Shown here one piece after another: positions 3,649 through 15,126 of a stretch of DNA of 64,000 nt. The translations under genes were made by a program, and so were the position numbers. The notes beneath the pieces are model-generated. The model did no database searches. It was not told the origin of the DNA and was given only the letters and a program-made list of their open reading frames with translations. How positions within the stretch are numbered: the stretch's first letter is position 1; every line of letters starts with the position of its first letter. Location of the stretch: positions 265,798-329,797 of the IMG/VR virus record IMGVR_UViG_3300031992_004563. One strand, written 5' to 3'. This stretch comes from a virus (taxonomy: Duplodnaviria > Heunggongvirae > Uroviricota > Caudoviricetes).

Positions 3649-3654
3649 TTTCGT

Positions 3655-3700
3655 GGATCTAGTGGGATTCGAACCCACGTGTTACATATGTTCCAACCTG
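3655..3700 (-). tRNA. tRNA-like 3-prime half (T-arm GTGGG-TTCGAAT-CCCAC plus acceptor strand and an encoded CCA). No matching 5-prime half or anticodon arm could be folded.
   Basis: The minus strand reads …GTGGGTTCGAATCCCACTAGATCCA. The T-arm is canonical and close to that of the tRNA-Arg at 13159-13232. The complementary 5-prime acceptor strand GGATCTA was not found upstream. Confidence 0.3.
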
Positions 3701-4140
3701 CTTTCTACATGTTTAGTTTGATTTAATTTTCGTATATTGCTAAACCTCAAACTAGCCAACAATATCTTAAGCTATTATAATTTCAAATTTGTTTAATAGC
3801 ATCACAAATTCTAATATCCAATATTTCTGCACCACTATAATCAATTCACCCTTGGATTATGGGTTTGAGTGATGTATGGTGAAATTACCTTGTAACTTCA
3901 TTAAGCGTGATCTTACTGTACTTCAGATCAAGCAGCCATAGCGTATTCATCTTCGCCATTTATTATTTTCAAAGAACATTTATTAGACGCATATCTTTAT
4001 GGCGTCACATGCTTACAAATCAAAATCAATGCAGTCAAAACCAAATAGACCCATAATTTTAATTTATATATTTATTATAAACAAAAACTGTAAAAAGTTT
4101 CAAAAATAAATATAAAAATAAAAATTTATTTTTGAATAAA

Positions 4141-12170: not shown

Positions 12171-13141
12171 ACATTTAATATTTGTTTTAATTGTTCTATT
12201 TCAATGTCAGATAATTTAGAAACAAATTTTGACATTTTGTTATATATTTTTTTAATCTCATTTTTCTGCTTTGTTTTTTCTTTTAGTATTGGAGTCATTT
12301 TTTCTTTATATAAACGCTTTGTTTTATTATAAATTTTAAAATGTGTTAACCATTGTCTAATTTCCCATTTAAAATTTACATCTTCAAATATATTGTGATC
12401 TTTATAGAATTTAGATTTTAATGCAGTATTAACAAACATTTCCGGAAAATCTTCTGGAATTTTTACATATGTAGAATAGCCTCTTAAATATTGCCAATGG
12501 GTATTTCCATATTTTTTTGCATCCATACATGGTTTAGAAACACCATTTTCATCTGGTTCAAAATGACATAAAAATGTTCTAAATGTATAAATTTCACGAA
12601 TGTCATCTTCATAATCCTTATAAAATTTTAATTCCCAGTTTTTTCTTAAACCAAATACAATTCCTTCGTTAGCAAATACAAAATTGCAATTTGCCTCATA
12701 ATAGCGTTTATTATTTTCATCTATATATGTATTAATAATATCTTCATATACTACTGTTTCATCTGGAATAATATCATATCCATCAGCAGATTTAAATTCT
12801 TCGTCAATAGTTTCATTAGCTTCATCTCCAGATAAACATATTTCATTTATACGTGTTCTATCGGCATAGCTTTTGCTTTGTTCATTATATGCTGGATCCT
12901 CTTCAATGTAATAAAAAATTCGTAATGCATATTTGCCATACATTATATATGCACCAGTTTTATTAACATATGTTTTGTATTTGTCAGATATATCTATAAG
13001 TTCAAAGCCACGATTGATTATCGTGACTTCTTTACCAATGATTTTTTCAAGATATTCATCTTTTCTAAAATCTGTATGAGAATTGTTTTTATTAACTACT
13101 TTAACTTTTTGTCCAATTTTGTATTTATATGTAATTTCCAT
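12167..13141 (-). CDS. Hypothetical protein
   Basis: 324-aa ORF. Confidence 0.5.
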   Translation of the reverse strand: MEITYKYKIGQKVKVVNKNNSHTDFRKDEYLEKIIGKEVTIINRGFELIDISDKYKTYVNKTGAYIMYGKYALRIFYYIEEDPAYNEQSKSYADRTRINEICLSGDEANETIDEEFKSADGYDIIPDETVVYEDIINTYIDENNKRYYEANCNFVFANEGIVFGLRKNWELKFYKDYEDDIREIYTFRTFLCHFEPDENGVSKPCMDAKKYGNTHWQYLRGYSTYVKIPEDFPEMFVNTALKSKFYKDHNIFEDVNFKWEIRQWLTHFKIYNKTKRLYKEKMTPILKEKTKQKNEIKKIYNKMSKFVSKLSDIEIEQLKQILNV

Positions 13142-13158
13142 AATTTTGTAATTTTTTG

Positions 13159-13232
13159 TACCTCGAGTGGGATTCTAACCCACAACTCCCATCTTAGAAG
13201 GATGGTACTCTATACAGTTGAGTTATCGAGGC
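13159..13232 (-). tRNA. tRNA-Arg (anticodon UCU, reads AGA)
   Basis: The minus strand reads GCCTCGA-TA-ACTC-AACTGTATA-GAGT-A-CCATC-CTTCTAA-GATGG-GAGTT-GTGGG-TTAGAAT-CCCAC-TCGAGGT-A. Acceptor, D, anticodon and T stems all pair, and loop positions 34-36 are TCT. Confidence 0.7.
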
Positions 13233-13234
13233 AT

Positions 13235-14005
13235 TTAATTTACTTTATATAAAAGTTTTTTCTTTTCATTATATCTCCAAAATTCACAATGTAATTTATT
13301 GATTATATAATTTTGCCTGTTTATGTCTCTTTGACATAAAATATTTTCATCTACATTTTCATAATGTGTAGATTCATCATATTCAAATGCAATATTTAAA
13401 TCTTTATCATAACCATCTAAAAAATATCCAGCTACTTCTATTTCCCCACCATTTTCTGCATGCTATAAATTCCAATGTTTTTCTTCATTTAATTTATTAA
13501 TATATTCACATCCCCTTTTAGAATACCTACATTTATATTTCACTTTGCATGATTTAAGATATTTTATAGTATTTAATCTTATTTTTTCTTTTTCTTCATC
13601 TGTCCATTTATGCCAATTTTGTGTCCATTTTCCATTAATATAATTTTCTTTTCTTTTTTCTACCTATTTTTTAACTCTTTCATCATTTTCAGATGTTAAT
13701 CCTTTATTCCATGCTATATGCCCTACTGTATGTCCATGATTTCCAGGATGAATTTTTCTATTTGGGTTTTCTTTACATCTATTTATATGAAATGTAATAC
13801 CAGATTTAGTAGATTTTATTTCATTATTACAATATGGACAAGTATTTGTAATTATCTCTTTAGTTCTTTTTGATATAGATTTAGTAATATTATCACACAC
13901 TACTTTATTCTTTTCATAATTTGGATTTAACTTGCAATGTGTAGAATGTCCAGCCAATTTATATTTAGATTCAAATTCTTTATTACAATATTTACATTTA
14001 AACAT
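13235..14005 (-). CDS. Homing-endonuclease-like protein (N-terminal zinc-finger/HNH-like Cys-His motifs, C-terminal YxLDGYD…NIAFEYDE nuclease-like segment); two in-frame TAGs (13664-13666, 13463-13465)
   Basis: The track ORF 13664-14005 ends in TAG. The same frame continues without TAA or TGA through a second TAG to TAA at 13235-13237, 3 nt before the tRNA-Arg 5-prime end. Motifs CKYCNKEF…HSTHC and HPGNHGH are present. Confidence 0.5.
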
Positions 14006-14034
14006 AAAAATAAAATAATTTTTATATTTATTTC

Positions 14035-14068
14035 TATGCTCTAGTCCATTGAGCTACCGAGCCAAGTT
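14035..14068 (-). pseudogene. Diverged partial copy of a tRNA 5-prime half (acceptor plus D-arm: GGCTCGGTAGCTCAATGGACTAGAGCA) immediately upstream of the endonuclease-like gene
   Basis: About 70% identical to the 5-prime 27 nt of the tRNA-Arg at 13232. No anticodon or T-arm follows. The ATG of the 13235-14005 gene lies about 30 nt downstream. Confidence 0.35.
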
Positions 14069-14274
14069 AAATTATCGTTTATAAAATTCTCTAAAAATAT
14101 CACTATGAATTTTTGAGGTTTTATTTAATTCTTTTTTATATGCTACAATTGCAATACCTGCACCTAATACAAATAAAAAACCAAATGCTATTCCAAAAAA
14201 CATTAATGCTTCCATCGTTAAACAAATTTATTTTTAATTATTATAATTATAAAAAATTAAAAGTTTAGGTAAAA

Positions 14275-15126
14275 ATGCATTTTGTACATTCATTATGGAC
14301 TAAACCTCTAATAGCTAATAGACGAAATATAGAGTTTAAAACATCATTATTAACAACTACATTATGTAATGCAGTTTCTGTTGCATGGGTTAATCATTTA
14401 GGTGGAAAAATAAACTTATATGCAGATGGTTTAGGAAGAGATATGTTAGGATTTCTTCCTTATGATAATATTTATGAATTACATGTACCTGTTCATATAC
14501 CCGTATGCACATGGGCATGTGGAAAGTTTTTAACATTAGAAAAAATGCCATTAGGCGATGTTCATATTGATGGTGATGTTTTTCTTAAATCTGAAAAACT
14601 TATTGAATTGTGTTCAGATAATTCATATGATATGGTTGTTCAATCAATAGAAAATGATAAAACAACACTTAAAAAATACTATTCAGCCGTAAGAGAACTA
14701 TTAAAGAAAAATAATATTAAGCCAAAAACATGTTCATTAGAAGAAAGTCCATCATATAATTGTGGAACAATTGGATTTTTTAATAATGAATTAAAACAAA
14801 AATATTTGATTGAATATTTTACAATGCTAAATAACATTATTAATAATAAATCATTATTAGTTGATTTAAATAAAAATTTAAATGCAATTCCTGATTTAAT
14901 AATGGAACAACAATTTCTTTATGAATTGGCTACACCATATAAAGTTAATAATCTATTAGGTGATGCAGAAACAATGTATGATAATGCAATTAAACTTAAC
15001 TATCAACATATTCTTGGAGGATTTAAAGAACAGCAATTGGATAAAATTTTGCAAGAACTTAAATATGTTGATGAAAAAATTTATAAAGAAACATTAAAAT
15101 ATATTAACTTTTTAATTAATTTTTAA
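14275..15126 (+). CDS. Hypothetical protein
   Basis: 283-aa ORF, TAA stop, followed by a hairpin. Confidence 0.5.
   Translation: MHFVHSLWTKPLIANRRNIEFKTSLLTTTLCNAVSVAWVNHLGGKINLYADGLGRDMLGFLPYDNIYELHVPVHIPVCTWACGKFLTLEKMPLGDVHIDGDVFLKSEKLIELCSDNSYDMVVQSIENDKTTLKKYYSAVRELLKKNNIKPKTCSLEESPSYNCGTIGFFNNELKQKYLIEYFTMLNNIINNKSLLVDLNKNLNAIPDLIMEQQFLYELATPYKVNNLLGDAETMYDNAIKLNYQHILGGFKEQQLDKILQELKYVDEKIYKETLKYINFLINF

What the first reader, a model, noticed from the sequence alone, without database searches (positions are those of the whole stretch)
13159..14068. Endonuclease-like gene sandwiched between a tRNA-Arg(UCU) and a diverged partial copy of that tRNA's 5-prime half
On the minus strand the order is a tRNA 5-prime-half-like fragment (14068-14035), a 256-codon zinc-finger/HNH-like and nuclease-like ORF with two in-frame TAGs (14005-13235), then, 3 nt after its TAA, an intact tRNA-Arg (13232-13159). 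The fragment is about 70% identical to the tRNA-Arg 5-prime half. This looks like the footprint of a homing endonuclease gene inserted at or next to a tRNA gene with partial target duplication, comparable to segB in the T4 tRNA cluster. An alternative is a disrupted intron-like arrangement. The endonuclease itself needs TAG suppression to be made.
Basis: partly seen in the sequence, partly recalled or inferred. Interest (0 to 1): 0.6.

Follow-up and report, generated by a model that had tools for sequence, protein, structure and literature searches.

The report
Mobile nuclease cassette replacing a phage tRNA-Arg gene
A selfish nuclease gene that carries its own arginine tRNA has replaced the resident arginine tRNA gene of a ~500-kb phage and left a 28-base stub of a tRNA; near-identical phages without the insertion have one intact tRNA at exactly that spot.

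Summary
On the minus strand lie a 28-nt tRNA-Arg 5' fragment (14063-14036), a 30-nt spacer, a 256-codon ORF (14005-13235) and an intact tRNA-Arg(UCU) (13232-13158).

The ORF is intact under TAG=Gln. One of its two TAGs aligns to an invariant Gln, and dN/dS is about 0.2. It encodes two C2HC/C2H2 zinc fingers, a NUMOD3-like linker and a Vsr/DUF559-like PD-(D/E)xK nuclease. It is not an HNH enzyme.

Three independent contigs are 96-98% identical in both flanks but lack the ORF. They carry a single intact tRNA-Arg(UCU) starting at the same base as the fragment. The fragment-ORF-tRNA unit also occurs at about 80% identity in unrelated contexts. The 22 closest full-length homologues found are nearly all next to tRNA-Arg(UCU) genes, and half are preceded by an orphan Arg D-arm.

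Best reading: a free-standing homing-endonuclease cassette aimed at tRNA-Arg genes, analogous to T4 SegB but with a different nuclease. It brings a D-arm-variant replacement tRNA and uses the tRNA pieces as recombination arms. The insertion is shown. Cleavage specificity and resistance are inferred.

This is a new variant of a known kind and moderately interesting.

The parts
14036..14063 (-). Orphan 5' fragment of a tRNA-Arg gene (tRNA positions 1-28: acceptor strand, U8 A9, complete D-arm, A26). It forms the left end of the cassette.
   Evidence: Read from the sequence. The exact 21-mer occurs only inside tRNA-Arg genes of 9 viral contigs, with 0 chance hits in shuffles. It starts at the same base, 8 nt after the stop of the 47-aa gene, as the intact tRNA-Arg of the insertion-free relatives L180-L182. 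Its D-arm is near-invariant among cassette copies.
14006..14035 (-). AT-rich spacer and leader of the nuclease gene, conserved among cassette copies. It can form a weak A/U hairpin that includes the AUG.
   Evidence: Alignment with L095, L004, L099 and L100. RNA fold of 13990-14080(-): -16 kcal/mol, z = -2.7.
13235..14005 (-). Homing-endonuclease-like gene: 256 codons plus TAA, with in-frame TAG codons (read as Gln) at 13666-13664 and 13465-13463.
   Evidence: Translation. There are 388 homologues, with full-length ones at 100% coverage. The second TAG aligns to an invariant or near-invariant Gln in WNLQHAENGG. dN/dS is 0.21-0.25 against L095 and L004.
13766..14002 (-). Two zinc fingers (C-x2-C-x12/13-H-x3-C; residues 2-24 and 54-80), presumed to recognise nucleic acid.
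   Evidence: C56, C59, H73 and C77 are invariant; C4, C7, H20 and C24 are at least 90% conserved. C2H2 Pfam models hit 44 of 60 family members. PDB profile hits are C2H2 fingers only.
13238..13528 (-). C-terminal nuclease domain (residues ~160-256) with a PD-(D/E)xK, Vsr/DUF559-like fold. Residues ~96-152 upstream of it form a NUMOD3-like helical linker.
13158..13232 (-). Intact tRNA-Arg(UCU), the right end of the cassette. It is a variant allele with D stem ACUC/GAGU, D loop AACUGUAUA (no G19) and T loop UUAGAAU (A56), which gives a U19-A56 pair in place of G19-C56.
   Evidence: ARAGORN and Rfam at 61 bits. It is 89-93% identical to the tRNA of cassette copy L095 but about 60% identical to the resident tRNA of the insertion-free relatives.

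Best explanation
Window 14063-13158(-) is a compact mobile cassette made of an orphan tRNA-Arg 5' piece, a leader, a nuclease gene and a complete tRNA-Arg(UCU). It has replaced the resident tRNA-Arg(UCU) gene of a ~498-kb, AT-rich, TAG-recoded phage.

The gene encodes a free-standing homing-endonuclease-type protein: two zinc fingers, a NUMOD3-like linker and a Vsr/DUF559-like PD-(D/E)xK nuclease.

Proposed mechanism:
1. In a co-infected or recombining genome that lacks the cassette, the enzyme cuts the resident tRNA-Arg gene between the D-arm and the anticodon.
2. The broken ends find homology in the donor. The left end pairs with the orphan 5' piece and the right end pairs with the cassette's own tRNA.
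3. Repair copies everything in between.
4. The recipient gains the nuclease gene and a functional tRNA-Arg with an altered D-arm, presumably uncuttable, so no tRNA function is lost and no splicing is needed.
5. The 5' stub of a tRNA remains upstream.
6. The two TAG codons restrict synthesis of the enzyme to the stage of infection when TAG is read as Gln.

Shown: the insertion or replacement at a tRNA-Arg locus, the cassette boundaries, the presence/absence polymorphism, the family-wide linkage to tRNA-Arg(UCU) and to orphan D-arms, purifying selection, the fold and TAG=Gln.

Inferred: DNA cleavage, its site, resistance of the variant tRNA gene, and late timing of expression.
For: Empty site. 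L180, L181 and L182 come from three different samples. They are 97-98% identical to the window upstream and 94-98% identical immediately downstream. Between the 47-aa gene and the 324-aa gene they carry only a 76-nt tRNA-Arg(UCU), whose first base coincides with the first base of the fragment. Three other assemblies carry the insertion.

Cassette unit. The only homology between the window and L095 or L004 is window 14063-13149. This is the fragment through the ORF, plus the tRNA in the case of L095, at about 80% identity. All flanks are unrelated.

Chimeric fragment. Its acceptor strand GGCTCGG matches the resident GGCCCGG at 6 of 7 positions, but L095 at only 3 of 7. Its D-arm matches L095 at 19 of 21 positions, but the resident at only 15 of 21. 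This is what a crossover inside the tRNA 5' homology would produce.

Family linkage. Nearly all of the 22 closest full-length homologues found (at least 44% identity) have a tRNA-Arg(UCU) within -22 to +65 nt downstream and/or within 39-190 nt upstream. More distant subfamilies sit next to tRNA-Leu, Lys, Ser or Cys genes.

Orphan D-arms. An orphan canonical Arg D-arm lies within 150 nt upstream of 9 of 18 non-redundant Arg-subfamily ORFs, against 7 hits in 144 kb of control sequence. Four of those 7 are inverted D-arm copies just upstream of other family ORFs. 17 of about 20 D-arm columns are invariant across five cassettes whose ORFs differ at about half of their synonymous sites.

Altered adjacent tRNAs. 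Every tRNA-Arg(UCU) directly downstream of a family ORF has a changed D-arm, while the orphans keep GGA(Y)TAGARCA.

Recombination scars elsewhere. In L008 an orphan 5' piece (GCACCCG...) and an orphan 3' remainder (...CGGGTGT) of one tRNA-Arg are separated by 1.77 kb holding the ORF and a new tRNA-Arg. In L007 the tRNA's first 22 nt lie inside the ORF and the orphan is 21 nt long. L004 and L095 share the ORF and flanks, but the tRNA body is swapped.

Protein. Fold and domains are. dN/dS is 0.21-0.25 and TAG aligns to Gln.

Precedents. T4 SegB cuts tRNA genes and drives inheritance of the tRNA region (PMC2330249). Recoded stop codons have been proposed to delay homing-endonuclease synthesis (bioRxiv 10.1101/2021.08.26.457843).
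Against: - No biochemical evidence exists. Neither the cleavage site nor even the substrate type (DNA or RNA) is known.
- The resident tRNA of the insertion-free relatives is itself non-canonical in its D-arm (GAUC/GAUC stem, A19-U56), so 'canonical = sensitive' is too simple.
- The orphan keeps the canonical D-arm, so the target must extend 3' of position 28, or the orphan would be cut.
- No co-conversion gradient is seen in the flanks.
- One close homologue, L097, sits between tRNA-Met and tRNA-Asn with no Arg sequence nearby.
- Some members have the D-arm copy inverted, which a pure homology-arm role does not explain.
Confidence: 0.7

Rival explanations
1. The orphan D-arm is kept mainly as a binding site (operator or decoy) for the nuclease upstream of its own start codon. 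This would give autoregulation, as I-TevI does at an operator that resembles its homing site. The idea is compatible with the homing model and may be an added function rather than an alternative.
For: The D-arm is conserved far above the synonymous-site level, while the acceptor part is lost in L098, L099, L100 and L006. It lies 29-71 nt upstream of the ATG. Inverted copies upstream of L104, L106, L008/L109 and L110 fit a protein site better than a recombination arm. Leu-linked subfamilies carry an orphan Leu D-arm 19-34 nt before the ATG. I-TevI autorepression is recalled from the literature and was not checked here.
Against: No promoter could be assigned and no binding data exist. Conservation can also arise if the fragment is renewed from conserved tRNA genes at each homing event.
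Confidence: 0.25
2. The nuclease no longer acts, or never acted, as a homing enzyme. The cassette spreads by ordinary homologous recombination between the many similar tRNA genes of huge-phage tRNA arrays. On this view the orphan is a passive scar of an unequal exchange or deletion between two tRNA-Arg copies.
For: Arrangements with complete tRNA-Arg(UCU) genes on both sides exist in L101-L103 and L006. tRNA bodies are swapped independently of the ORF in L004 versus L095.
Against: The ORF is under purifying selection with invariant acidic and His residues. The D-arm orphan is conserved well above neutral expectation. The linkage to one tRNA species per subfamily argues for sequence-specific targeting.
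Confidence: 0.12
3. The protein acts on RNA. It would be a tRNase that cleaves canonical (host or rival) tRNA-Arg, while the linked variant tRNA-Arg is a resistant replacement. The orphan D-arm in the leader would be an RNA decoy or feedback site.
Against: NUMOD3 and the Vsr/DUF559 fold are DNA-enzyme hallmarks, and phage look-alikes are annotated as homing endonucleases. The DNA-level scars, the presence/absence polymorphism and the context-independent cassette are the signature of DNA mobility.
Confidence: 0.08
4. It is an intron-like or split-tRNA arrangement. The fragment would be a 5' exon and the ORF would lie in a self-splicing intron.
For: The 5' piece sits upstream and tRNA sequence sits downstream. 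Group I introns do occur in bacterial tRNA genes (bioRxiv 10.1101/2025.07.03.662931).
Against: The downstream tRNA is complete on its own. Only 30 nt and 2 nt of non-coding sequence flank the ORF. No intron family matches at E<=10 in 13000-14300 or in related loci. The fragment ends in the D-arm and anticodon-stem region, not the anticodon loop.
Confidence: 0.02
5. The ORF is a decaying pseudogene and the two TAGs are real stop codons.
For: Under table 11 the ORF breaks into three pieces.
Against: The second TAG aligns to an invariant Gln. Relatives carry TAGs at other Gln or Lys columns. The frame is intact and dN/dS is about 0.2. Reading through TAG lengthens many ORFs of the window. The database stores the homologue P0001 with Gln at its TAG positions.
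Confidence: 0.02

Closest known systems
T4 SegB (free-standing GIY-YIG homing endonuclease in the T4 tRNA gene cluster; PMC2330249)
   Same: Both are free-standing nuclease genes embedded among phage tRNA genes, with a target inside a tRNA gene. Both drive preferential inheritance of the tRNA region, and both are absent from close relatives.
   Different: SegB is a GIY-YIG enzyme that recognises the T-psi-C stem-loop motif of many tRNA genes, and no target duplication is reported. The present protein combines zinc fingers, NUMOD3 and a PD-(D/E)xK domain. Each subfamily is tied to one tRNA species, here Arg(UCU). The scars map to the region from the D-arm to the anticodon. The cassette carries an orphan 5' piece and its own replacement tRNA.
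I-Bth0305I / EDxHD family and other Vsr- or DUF559-like PD-(D/E)xK homing endonucleases
   Different: I-Bth0305I is intron-encoded in recA-like genes. There is no sequence-level relationship and the literal EDxHD motif is absent. The zinc-finger N-terminus differs. No Pfam family covers this nuclease domain.
I-TevI (autorepression at an operator resembling its homing site; recalled from the literature)
   Same: Both are modular enzymes with a zinc finger or NUMOD-type DNA-binding part joined to a nuclease. In both, a partial copy of the target sits just upstream of the enzyme's own gene.
   Different: I-TevI is a GIY-YIG enzyme encoded in an intron, and its operator is not a remnant of a displaced gene. 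Binding has not been tested here.
Integrase-driven islands and prophages that insert into tRNA genes and carry a copy of the displaced tRNA end (recalled from the literature)
   Same: Insertion into a tRNA gene is made harmless because the element restores the gene, and a partial tRNA duplicate is left at the other junction.
   Different: Those elements use tyrosine or serine recombinases and duplicate the 3' end of the tRNA. Here there is no recombinase, the orphan is the 5' part, and the mechanism is presumably double-strand-break repair.
Homing-endonuclease insertions that split host genes without an intron (for example mobE in nrdA of Aeromonas phage Aeh1; recalled from the literature)
   Same: An intron-less endonuclease gene inserts inside a functional gene whose function is retained.
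   Different: There the two protein halves reassemble. Here function is retained by supplying a complete replacement gene.

Membership tests
Free-standing homing endonuclease genes (functional class) | Presence/absence polymorphism among otherwise near-identical genomes, at a precise site | tested here: met
   Three contigs (L180-L182) are 96-98% identical in both flanks and lack the ORF. Three assemblies carry it.
Free-standing homing endonuclease genes (functional class) | Same element in unrelated genomic contexts (horizontal mobility) | tested here: met
   Homology of the window to L095 and L004 is limited to the cassette.
Free-standing homing endonuclease genes (functional class) | Site-specific double-strand cleavage of the element-free allele near the insertion point | not testable with these tools
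   This is only inferred, from scars in tRNA-Arg genes between positions ~21 and ~37.
Free-standing homing endonuclease genes (functional class) | Modular architecture: DNA-binding modules (such as NUMOD) plus a nuclease domain | tested here: met
   C2H2-type fingers hit 44 of 60 members and NUMOD3 hits 7 of 60 (best E 8.8e-10). In the window protein itself NUMOD3 is below threshold.
PD-(D/E)xK nuclease superfamily, Vsr/DUF559-like branch | Restriction-endonuclease-like alpha/beta core fold | tested here: met
PD-(D/E)xK nuclease superfamily, Vsr/DUF559-like branch | Conserved acidic (and His) catalytic residues on the core strands | tested here: inconclusive
   E188, D197, D200, E208, E211 and H214 are invariant. 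Their assignment to catalytic positions was not verified by superposition.
HNH (beta-beta-alpha-Me) endonucleases | HNH motif or Pfam HNH-family match, beta-beta-alpha-metal fold | tested here: not met
GIY-YIG endonucleases (SegB family) | GIY-YIG catalytic domain | tested here: not met
   There is no GIY-YIG hit. A separate GIY-YIG-like gene lies next to tRNA-Met in L004.
Group I intron-encoded endonuclease / intron-containing tRNA | Ribozyme core flanking the ORF, and exons that join to one tRNA | tested here: not met
   No intron family matches. The non-coding flanks are 30 nt and 2 nt. The downstream tRNA is complete.
TAG-to-Gln recoded phages (genetic code 15) | In-frame TAG at conserved Gln positions of intact genes | tested here: met
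   The WNL-TAG-HAENGG column is all Gln, and L095/L004 TAGs also fall on an all-Gln column. ORFs lengthen when TAG is read through.
TAG-to-Gln recoded phages (genetic code 15) | Phage-encoded suppressor tRNA(CUA) | tested here: inconclusive
   None is present in the 64-kb window, which has only tRNA-Arg and a tmRNA. The remaining ~434 kb of the contig was not examined.

The most novel reading that the evidence does not exclude
The cassette is a self-sufficient, splicing-free equivalent of a mobile intron. It carries both recombination arms, an orphan 5' tRNA piece and a complete tRNA, so it can home into any genome that has a tRNA-Arg(UCU) gene whatever the flanking DNA. It also pays for the damage by delivering a cleavage-resistant tRNA. 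Recurrent attack by such elements would then be what has driven phage tRNA-Arg genes to rewrite their D-arm. That rewriting includes compensated changes of the otherwise almost universal G19-C56 elbow pair, to U-A, C-G and A-U.
Probability: 0.35. Interest if true: 0.75.

Novelty: new variant of a known kind. Interest (0 to 1): 0.6.

Why it matters
- It offers a clean natural filled-site versus empty-site pair for a homing-type element that targets a tRNA gene in a ~500-kb recoded phage.
- It defines an uncharacterised nuclease family (zinc fingers, NUMOD3, Vsr-like domain with no Pfam model). The family has hundreds of members, and its subfamilies each track one tRNA species.
- It suggests a design not described for SegB-type elements: the element duplicates part of its target and carries a replacement gene, so it needs neither splicing nor flanking homology.
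- If the specificity is confirmed, these would be compact zinc-finger-guided nucleases with readable targets.
- They would also explain why tRNA arrays of huge phages are mosaics littered with tRNA fragments, and why assemblies break there.
- Practically, annotators should expect orphan tRNA pieces and TAG-containing nuclease genes in such arrays, and should not call them pseudogenes.

Tried and rejected
- Pfam and PHROGs on the recoded protein gave only sub-threshold zinc-finger hits.
- The PDB sequence profile found zinc fingers only.
- Searches for relatives of the flanking genes found nothing in IMG/VR or in GenBank phages. The empty site was found only through the large protein index.
- An exact-word search for the L004/L095 downstream flank in IMG/VR found nothing.
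- My fuzzy D-arm regex allowing 4 errors is not specific in this AT-rich DNA (2.2 hits per shuffled window). It was replaced by the exact and 3-mismatch tests.
- The sigma-70 promoter scan was uninformative (17 found against 13 expected).
- No co-conversion gradient was found in the flanks.
- The simple model in which the element carries only a new 5' half and the 3' half is resident fits the overlap geometry of L007. It does not fit the window, whose whole tRNA differs from the resident one. It also does not fit L004 versus L095, where the whole tRNA body is swapped.
- The intron and pseudogene readings were rejected, as set out under the rival explanations.
Full report
WHAT IS THERE

On the minus strand the order is as follows:
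- the stop of a 47-aa membrane-protein gene (TAA at 14074-14072), then 8 nt;
- a 28-nt tRNA 5' piece (14063-14036: GGCTCGG UA GCUC AAUGGACUA GAGC A U);
- a 30-nt A/T spacer;
- a 256-codon ORF (14005-13235, stop TAA) with in-frame TAGs at 13666-13664 and 13465-13463, then 2 nt;
- tRNA-Arg(UCU) (13232-13158; ARAGORN; Rfam 61 bits), then 16 nt;
- the ATG of a 324-aa gene.

THE FRAGMENT IS A REAL tRNA-Arg PIECE

It is 70% identical to the neighbouring tRNA's 5' half, but that is not the informative comparison.
- Its 21-mer GTAGCTCAATGGACTAGAGCA occurs exactly in nine IMG/VR contigs. In all eight that can be resolved it lies inside a tRNA-Arg gene: six UCU and two UCG.
- A 22-nt version with up to three mismatches hits the window once and hits none of 100 dinucleotide shuffles.
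- The fragment therefore comes from a canonical tRNA-Arg allele.
- The intact tRNA next door is a variant allele with D stem ACUC/GAGU, a D loop without G19 and a T loop UUAGAAU.

THE ORF IS AN INTACT, SELECTED GENE READ WITH TAG=Gln

Coding state:
- A search of the large protein index returns 388 relatives, many of them full length at 100% coverage.
- The second TAG falls in the motif WNL-Q-HAENGG, where Gln is at least 90% conserved. All eight close relatives have Gln there.
- Relatives L095 and L004 have their own TAGs at other Gln or Lys columns.
- dN/dS against L095 and L004 is 0.21-0.25, at dS 0.64-0.81.
- Reading through TAG lengthens many ORFs of the window.
- The only nucleotide matches in GenBank phages are the TAG-recoded Prevotella Lak megaphages, and those matches cover only this ORF.
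- The window is part of a 497,886-bp contig.

Domains:
- There are two C-x2-C-x12/13-H-x3-C fingers, with their Cys/His ligands invariant or at least 90% conserved.
- A helical linker matches NUMOD3 in 7 of 60 relatives.
- The C-terminal domain has no Pfam model.
- In the viral structure library its nearest neighbours are phage proteins annotated as homing endonuclease, DUF559, NUMOD3 or C2H2.
- Nothing supports an HNH or AP2 assignment.

THE EMPTY SITE

The 324-aa neighbour has a 96%-identical homologue, encoded on contigs from three other samples (L180, L181, L182).
- These contigs are 97-98% identical to the window for 4.9 kb upstream. They are 94-98% identical over the first kilobase downstream, falling to about 90% and lower farther out.
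- They have no nuclease gene.
- Between the 47-aa and 324-aa genes lies one 76-nt tRNA-Arg(UCU).
- Its first base is 8 nt after the same stop codon, exactly where the window's fragment begins. Its last base is followed by the same sequence, AAAAATTACAAAATTATG.
- The window's 906 nt (14063-13158) therefore stand in the place of a single 76-nt tRNA gene.
- Flank identity is already 96-98% in the first 250 nt on both sides, so the exchanged tract is confined to the tRNA locus.
- Three further assemblies contain the filled site. Two of them break inside the ORF.

THE CASSETTE IS A UNIT THAT MOVES

- The closest relatives of the ORF (L095 and L004, 75% amino-acid identity) lie in different gene contexts.
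- By blastn and tblastx, the only similarity to the whole 64-kb window is window 14063-13149. This is fragment, spacer and ORF, plus the tRNA for L095.
- The window's fragment looks chimeric. Its acceptor strand (GGCTCGG) matches the resident tRNA of the empty site (GGCCCGG) at 6 of 7 positions, but L095's orphan at only 3 of 7.
- Its D-arm matches L095's orphan at 19 of 21 positions, but the resident tRNA at only 15 of 21.
- That pattern is what a crossover within the short tRNA 5' homology would leave.
- The window's complete tRNA is 89-93% identical to L095's, but only about 60% identical to the resident one. The replacement tRNA therefore arrived with the cassette.

THE PATTERN IS FAMILY-WIDE

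- Across about 160 fetched loci, nearly all of the 22 full-length homologues with at least 44% identity are flanked by tRNA-Arg(UCU). The gene starts between -22 and +65 nt of the stop codon, and/or lies 39-190 nt upstream.
- More distant subfamilies sit beside tRNA-Leu, Lys, Ser or Cys genes.
- An orphan canonical Arg D-arm lies within 150 nt upstream of 9 of 18 non-redundant ORFs. The control is 7 hits in 144 kb, and four of those are inverted D-arm copies just upstream of other family members.
- 17 of about 20 D-arm columns are invariant among five cassettes whose ORFs differ at about half of their synonymous sites. Some of these proteins are only 48% identical.
- The acceptor part is variable or lost. 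The orphan D-arm is therefore either selected or regularly renewed.
- Leu-linked subfamilies carry an orphan Leu D-arm 19-34 nt before the ATG.
- Every tRNA-Arg(UCU) immediately downstream of a family ORF has an altered D-arm. The changes are stem swaps, a 1-nt insertion, or loss of G19.

Other loci show the same kind of scar:
- In L008 an orphan 5' piece and an orphan 3' remainder with complementary acceptor strands are 1.77 kb apart. Between them lie the ORF, a new tRNA-Arg and the 3' remainder of yet another tRNA-Arg.
- In L007 the first 22 nt of the tRNA lie inside the ORF and the orphan is 21 nt long.
- In L004 versus L095 the tRNA body is swapped between identical flanks.
- Junctions fall between tRNA positions ~21 and ~37.

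MECHANISM

I conclude that this is a free-standing homing-endonuclease cassette specialised on tRNA-Arg(UCU) genes.

Shown: the insertion or replacement at a tRNA locus, the cassette boundaries at the tRNA ends, the presence/absence polymorphism, context-independent spread, the family-wide linkage to tRNAs and orphans, purifying selection, a nuclease fold with DNA-binding modules, and TAG=Gln.

Inferred:
- The enzyme cuts element-free tRNA-Arg genes between the D-arm and the anticodon.
- The orphan 5' piece and the cassette tRNA act as the two homology arms during repair.
- The variant D-arm makes the delivered tRNA gene resistant.
- The TAG codons delay synthesis until TAG is decoded. This idea has been proposed for a recoded intron endonuclease.

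Precedent comes from T4 SegB, which cuts tRNA genes and drives inheritance of the tRNA region. It is a GIY-YIG enzyme that recognises the T-psi-C motif, and it has no reported target duplication.

CAVEATS AND RIVALS

- The orphan may also, or instead, be an operator for autoregulation. Its inverted copies and the selective retention of the D-arm favour this.
- The enzyme might act on RNA. RAP-like fold hits and dsRNA-type finger hits point that way, but the DNA-level evidence points the other way.
- The nuclease could be inactive, with ordinary recombination moving the cassette. Selection on the ORF and on the orphan argues against this.
- The intron and pseudogene readings are rejected.
- The resident tRNA of the empty site is itself non-canonical (A19-U56). 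The simple rule that a canonical D-arm means a sensitive gene is therefore unproven.

SIDE FINDING

Among 528 unique tRNAs from the fetched loci with a parsable T loop, position 56 is not C in 18 of 64 tRNA-Arg, against 2 of 464 other tRNAs (Fisher p = 5e-16). In every parsable case the D loop contains G18 followed by the complement of N56, giving U-A, C-G or A-U. The sample is biased towards loci that contain this nuclease family, so a causal link to the nuclease is only a hypothesis.

VERDICT

It is wrong on the nuclease type and on the origin of the fragment. This is a new variant of a known kind, with interest 0.6.

Noticed in passing
window 3651-4052 (-): A phage-encoded tmRNA (Rfam 81 bits) with ARAGORN tag peptide GEDEYAMAA. 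It lies about 9 kb from the cassette.
   Followed up: no
whole window: Reading through TAG raises the total length of ORFs of at least 100 aa from 20.9k to 24.8k codons and creates new ORFs of 868, 717, 715 and 654 aa. Only some genes use the alternative code. No tRNA(CUA) is present in these 64 kb.
   Followed up: partly
tRNA-Arg genes in window 13158-13232, L001, L006, L008, L095, L098, L099, L101, L106, L110, L119, L147, L180: The tertiary elbow pair 19-56, normally G-C, is U-A, C-G or A-U in 18 of 64 tRNA-Arg (UCU, CCU, ACG) but in only 2 of 464 other tRNAs of the same loci. It always shows Watson-Crick complementarity. The insertion-free relative L180 also has A19-U56.
   Followed up: partly
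L007 2896-2925, L008 2916-2945, L104 211-230, L106 451-470, L110 1865-1884: Inverted copies of the Arg D-arm lie upstream of the nuclease ORF. In L007, L008 and L106 they directly follow a truncated direct copy and a T-run, forming a long hairpin or palindrome. Their function is unexplained: an operator, a processing site or a repair scar are all possible.
   Followed up: partly
L008 3930-4680; also downstream of the tRNA in L107: About 750 nt lack any ORF of 50 aa or more and look less AT-rich by eye than their surroundings (composition not measured). The stretch lies between the cassette tRNA remnants and an orphan tRNA-Arg 3' remainder. No Rfam family matches.
   Followed up: partly
L004 1486-1700 and 1834-2700; L095 2512-2728: A conserved ~215-nt spacer that looks comparatively GC-rich by eye (composition not measured) follows the cassette tRNA and precedes tRNA-Met. 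In L004 it is followed by a second, GIY-YIG-like endonuclease gene that also contains in-frame TAGs. These tRNA arrays therefore host several nuclease families.
   Followed up: no
window 13990-14035 (-): The A/U-only leader can pair across the AUG of the nuclease gene (z = -2.7). This resembles the start-codon sequestration described for T4 endonuclease genes, but the hairpin is very weak.
   Followed up: no
L176 1-60; L178 and L179 ends: Assemblies of two other samples break inside the nuclease ORF. This may be because the family is multi-copy or polymorphic in those populations.
   Followed up: no
P0108: One family member keeps the zinc-finger and NUMOD part but has a different, classical DUF559-type C-terminal nuclease (…IGIEVNGNQHY…). 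This indicates domain shuffling within the family.
   Followed up: no
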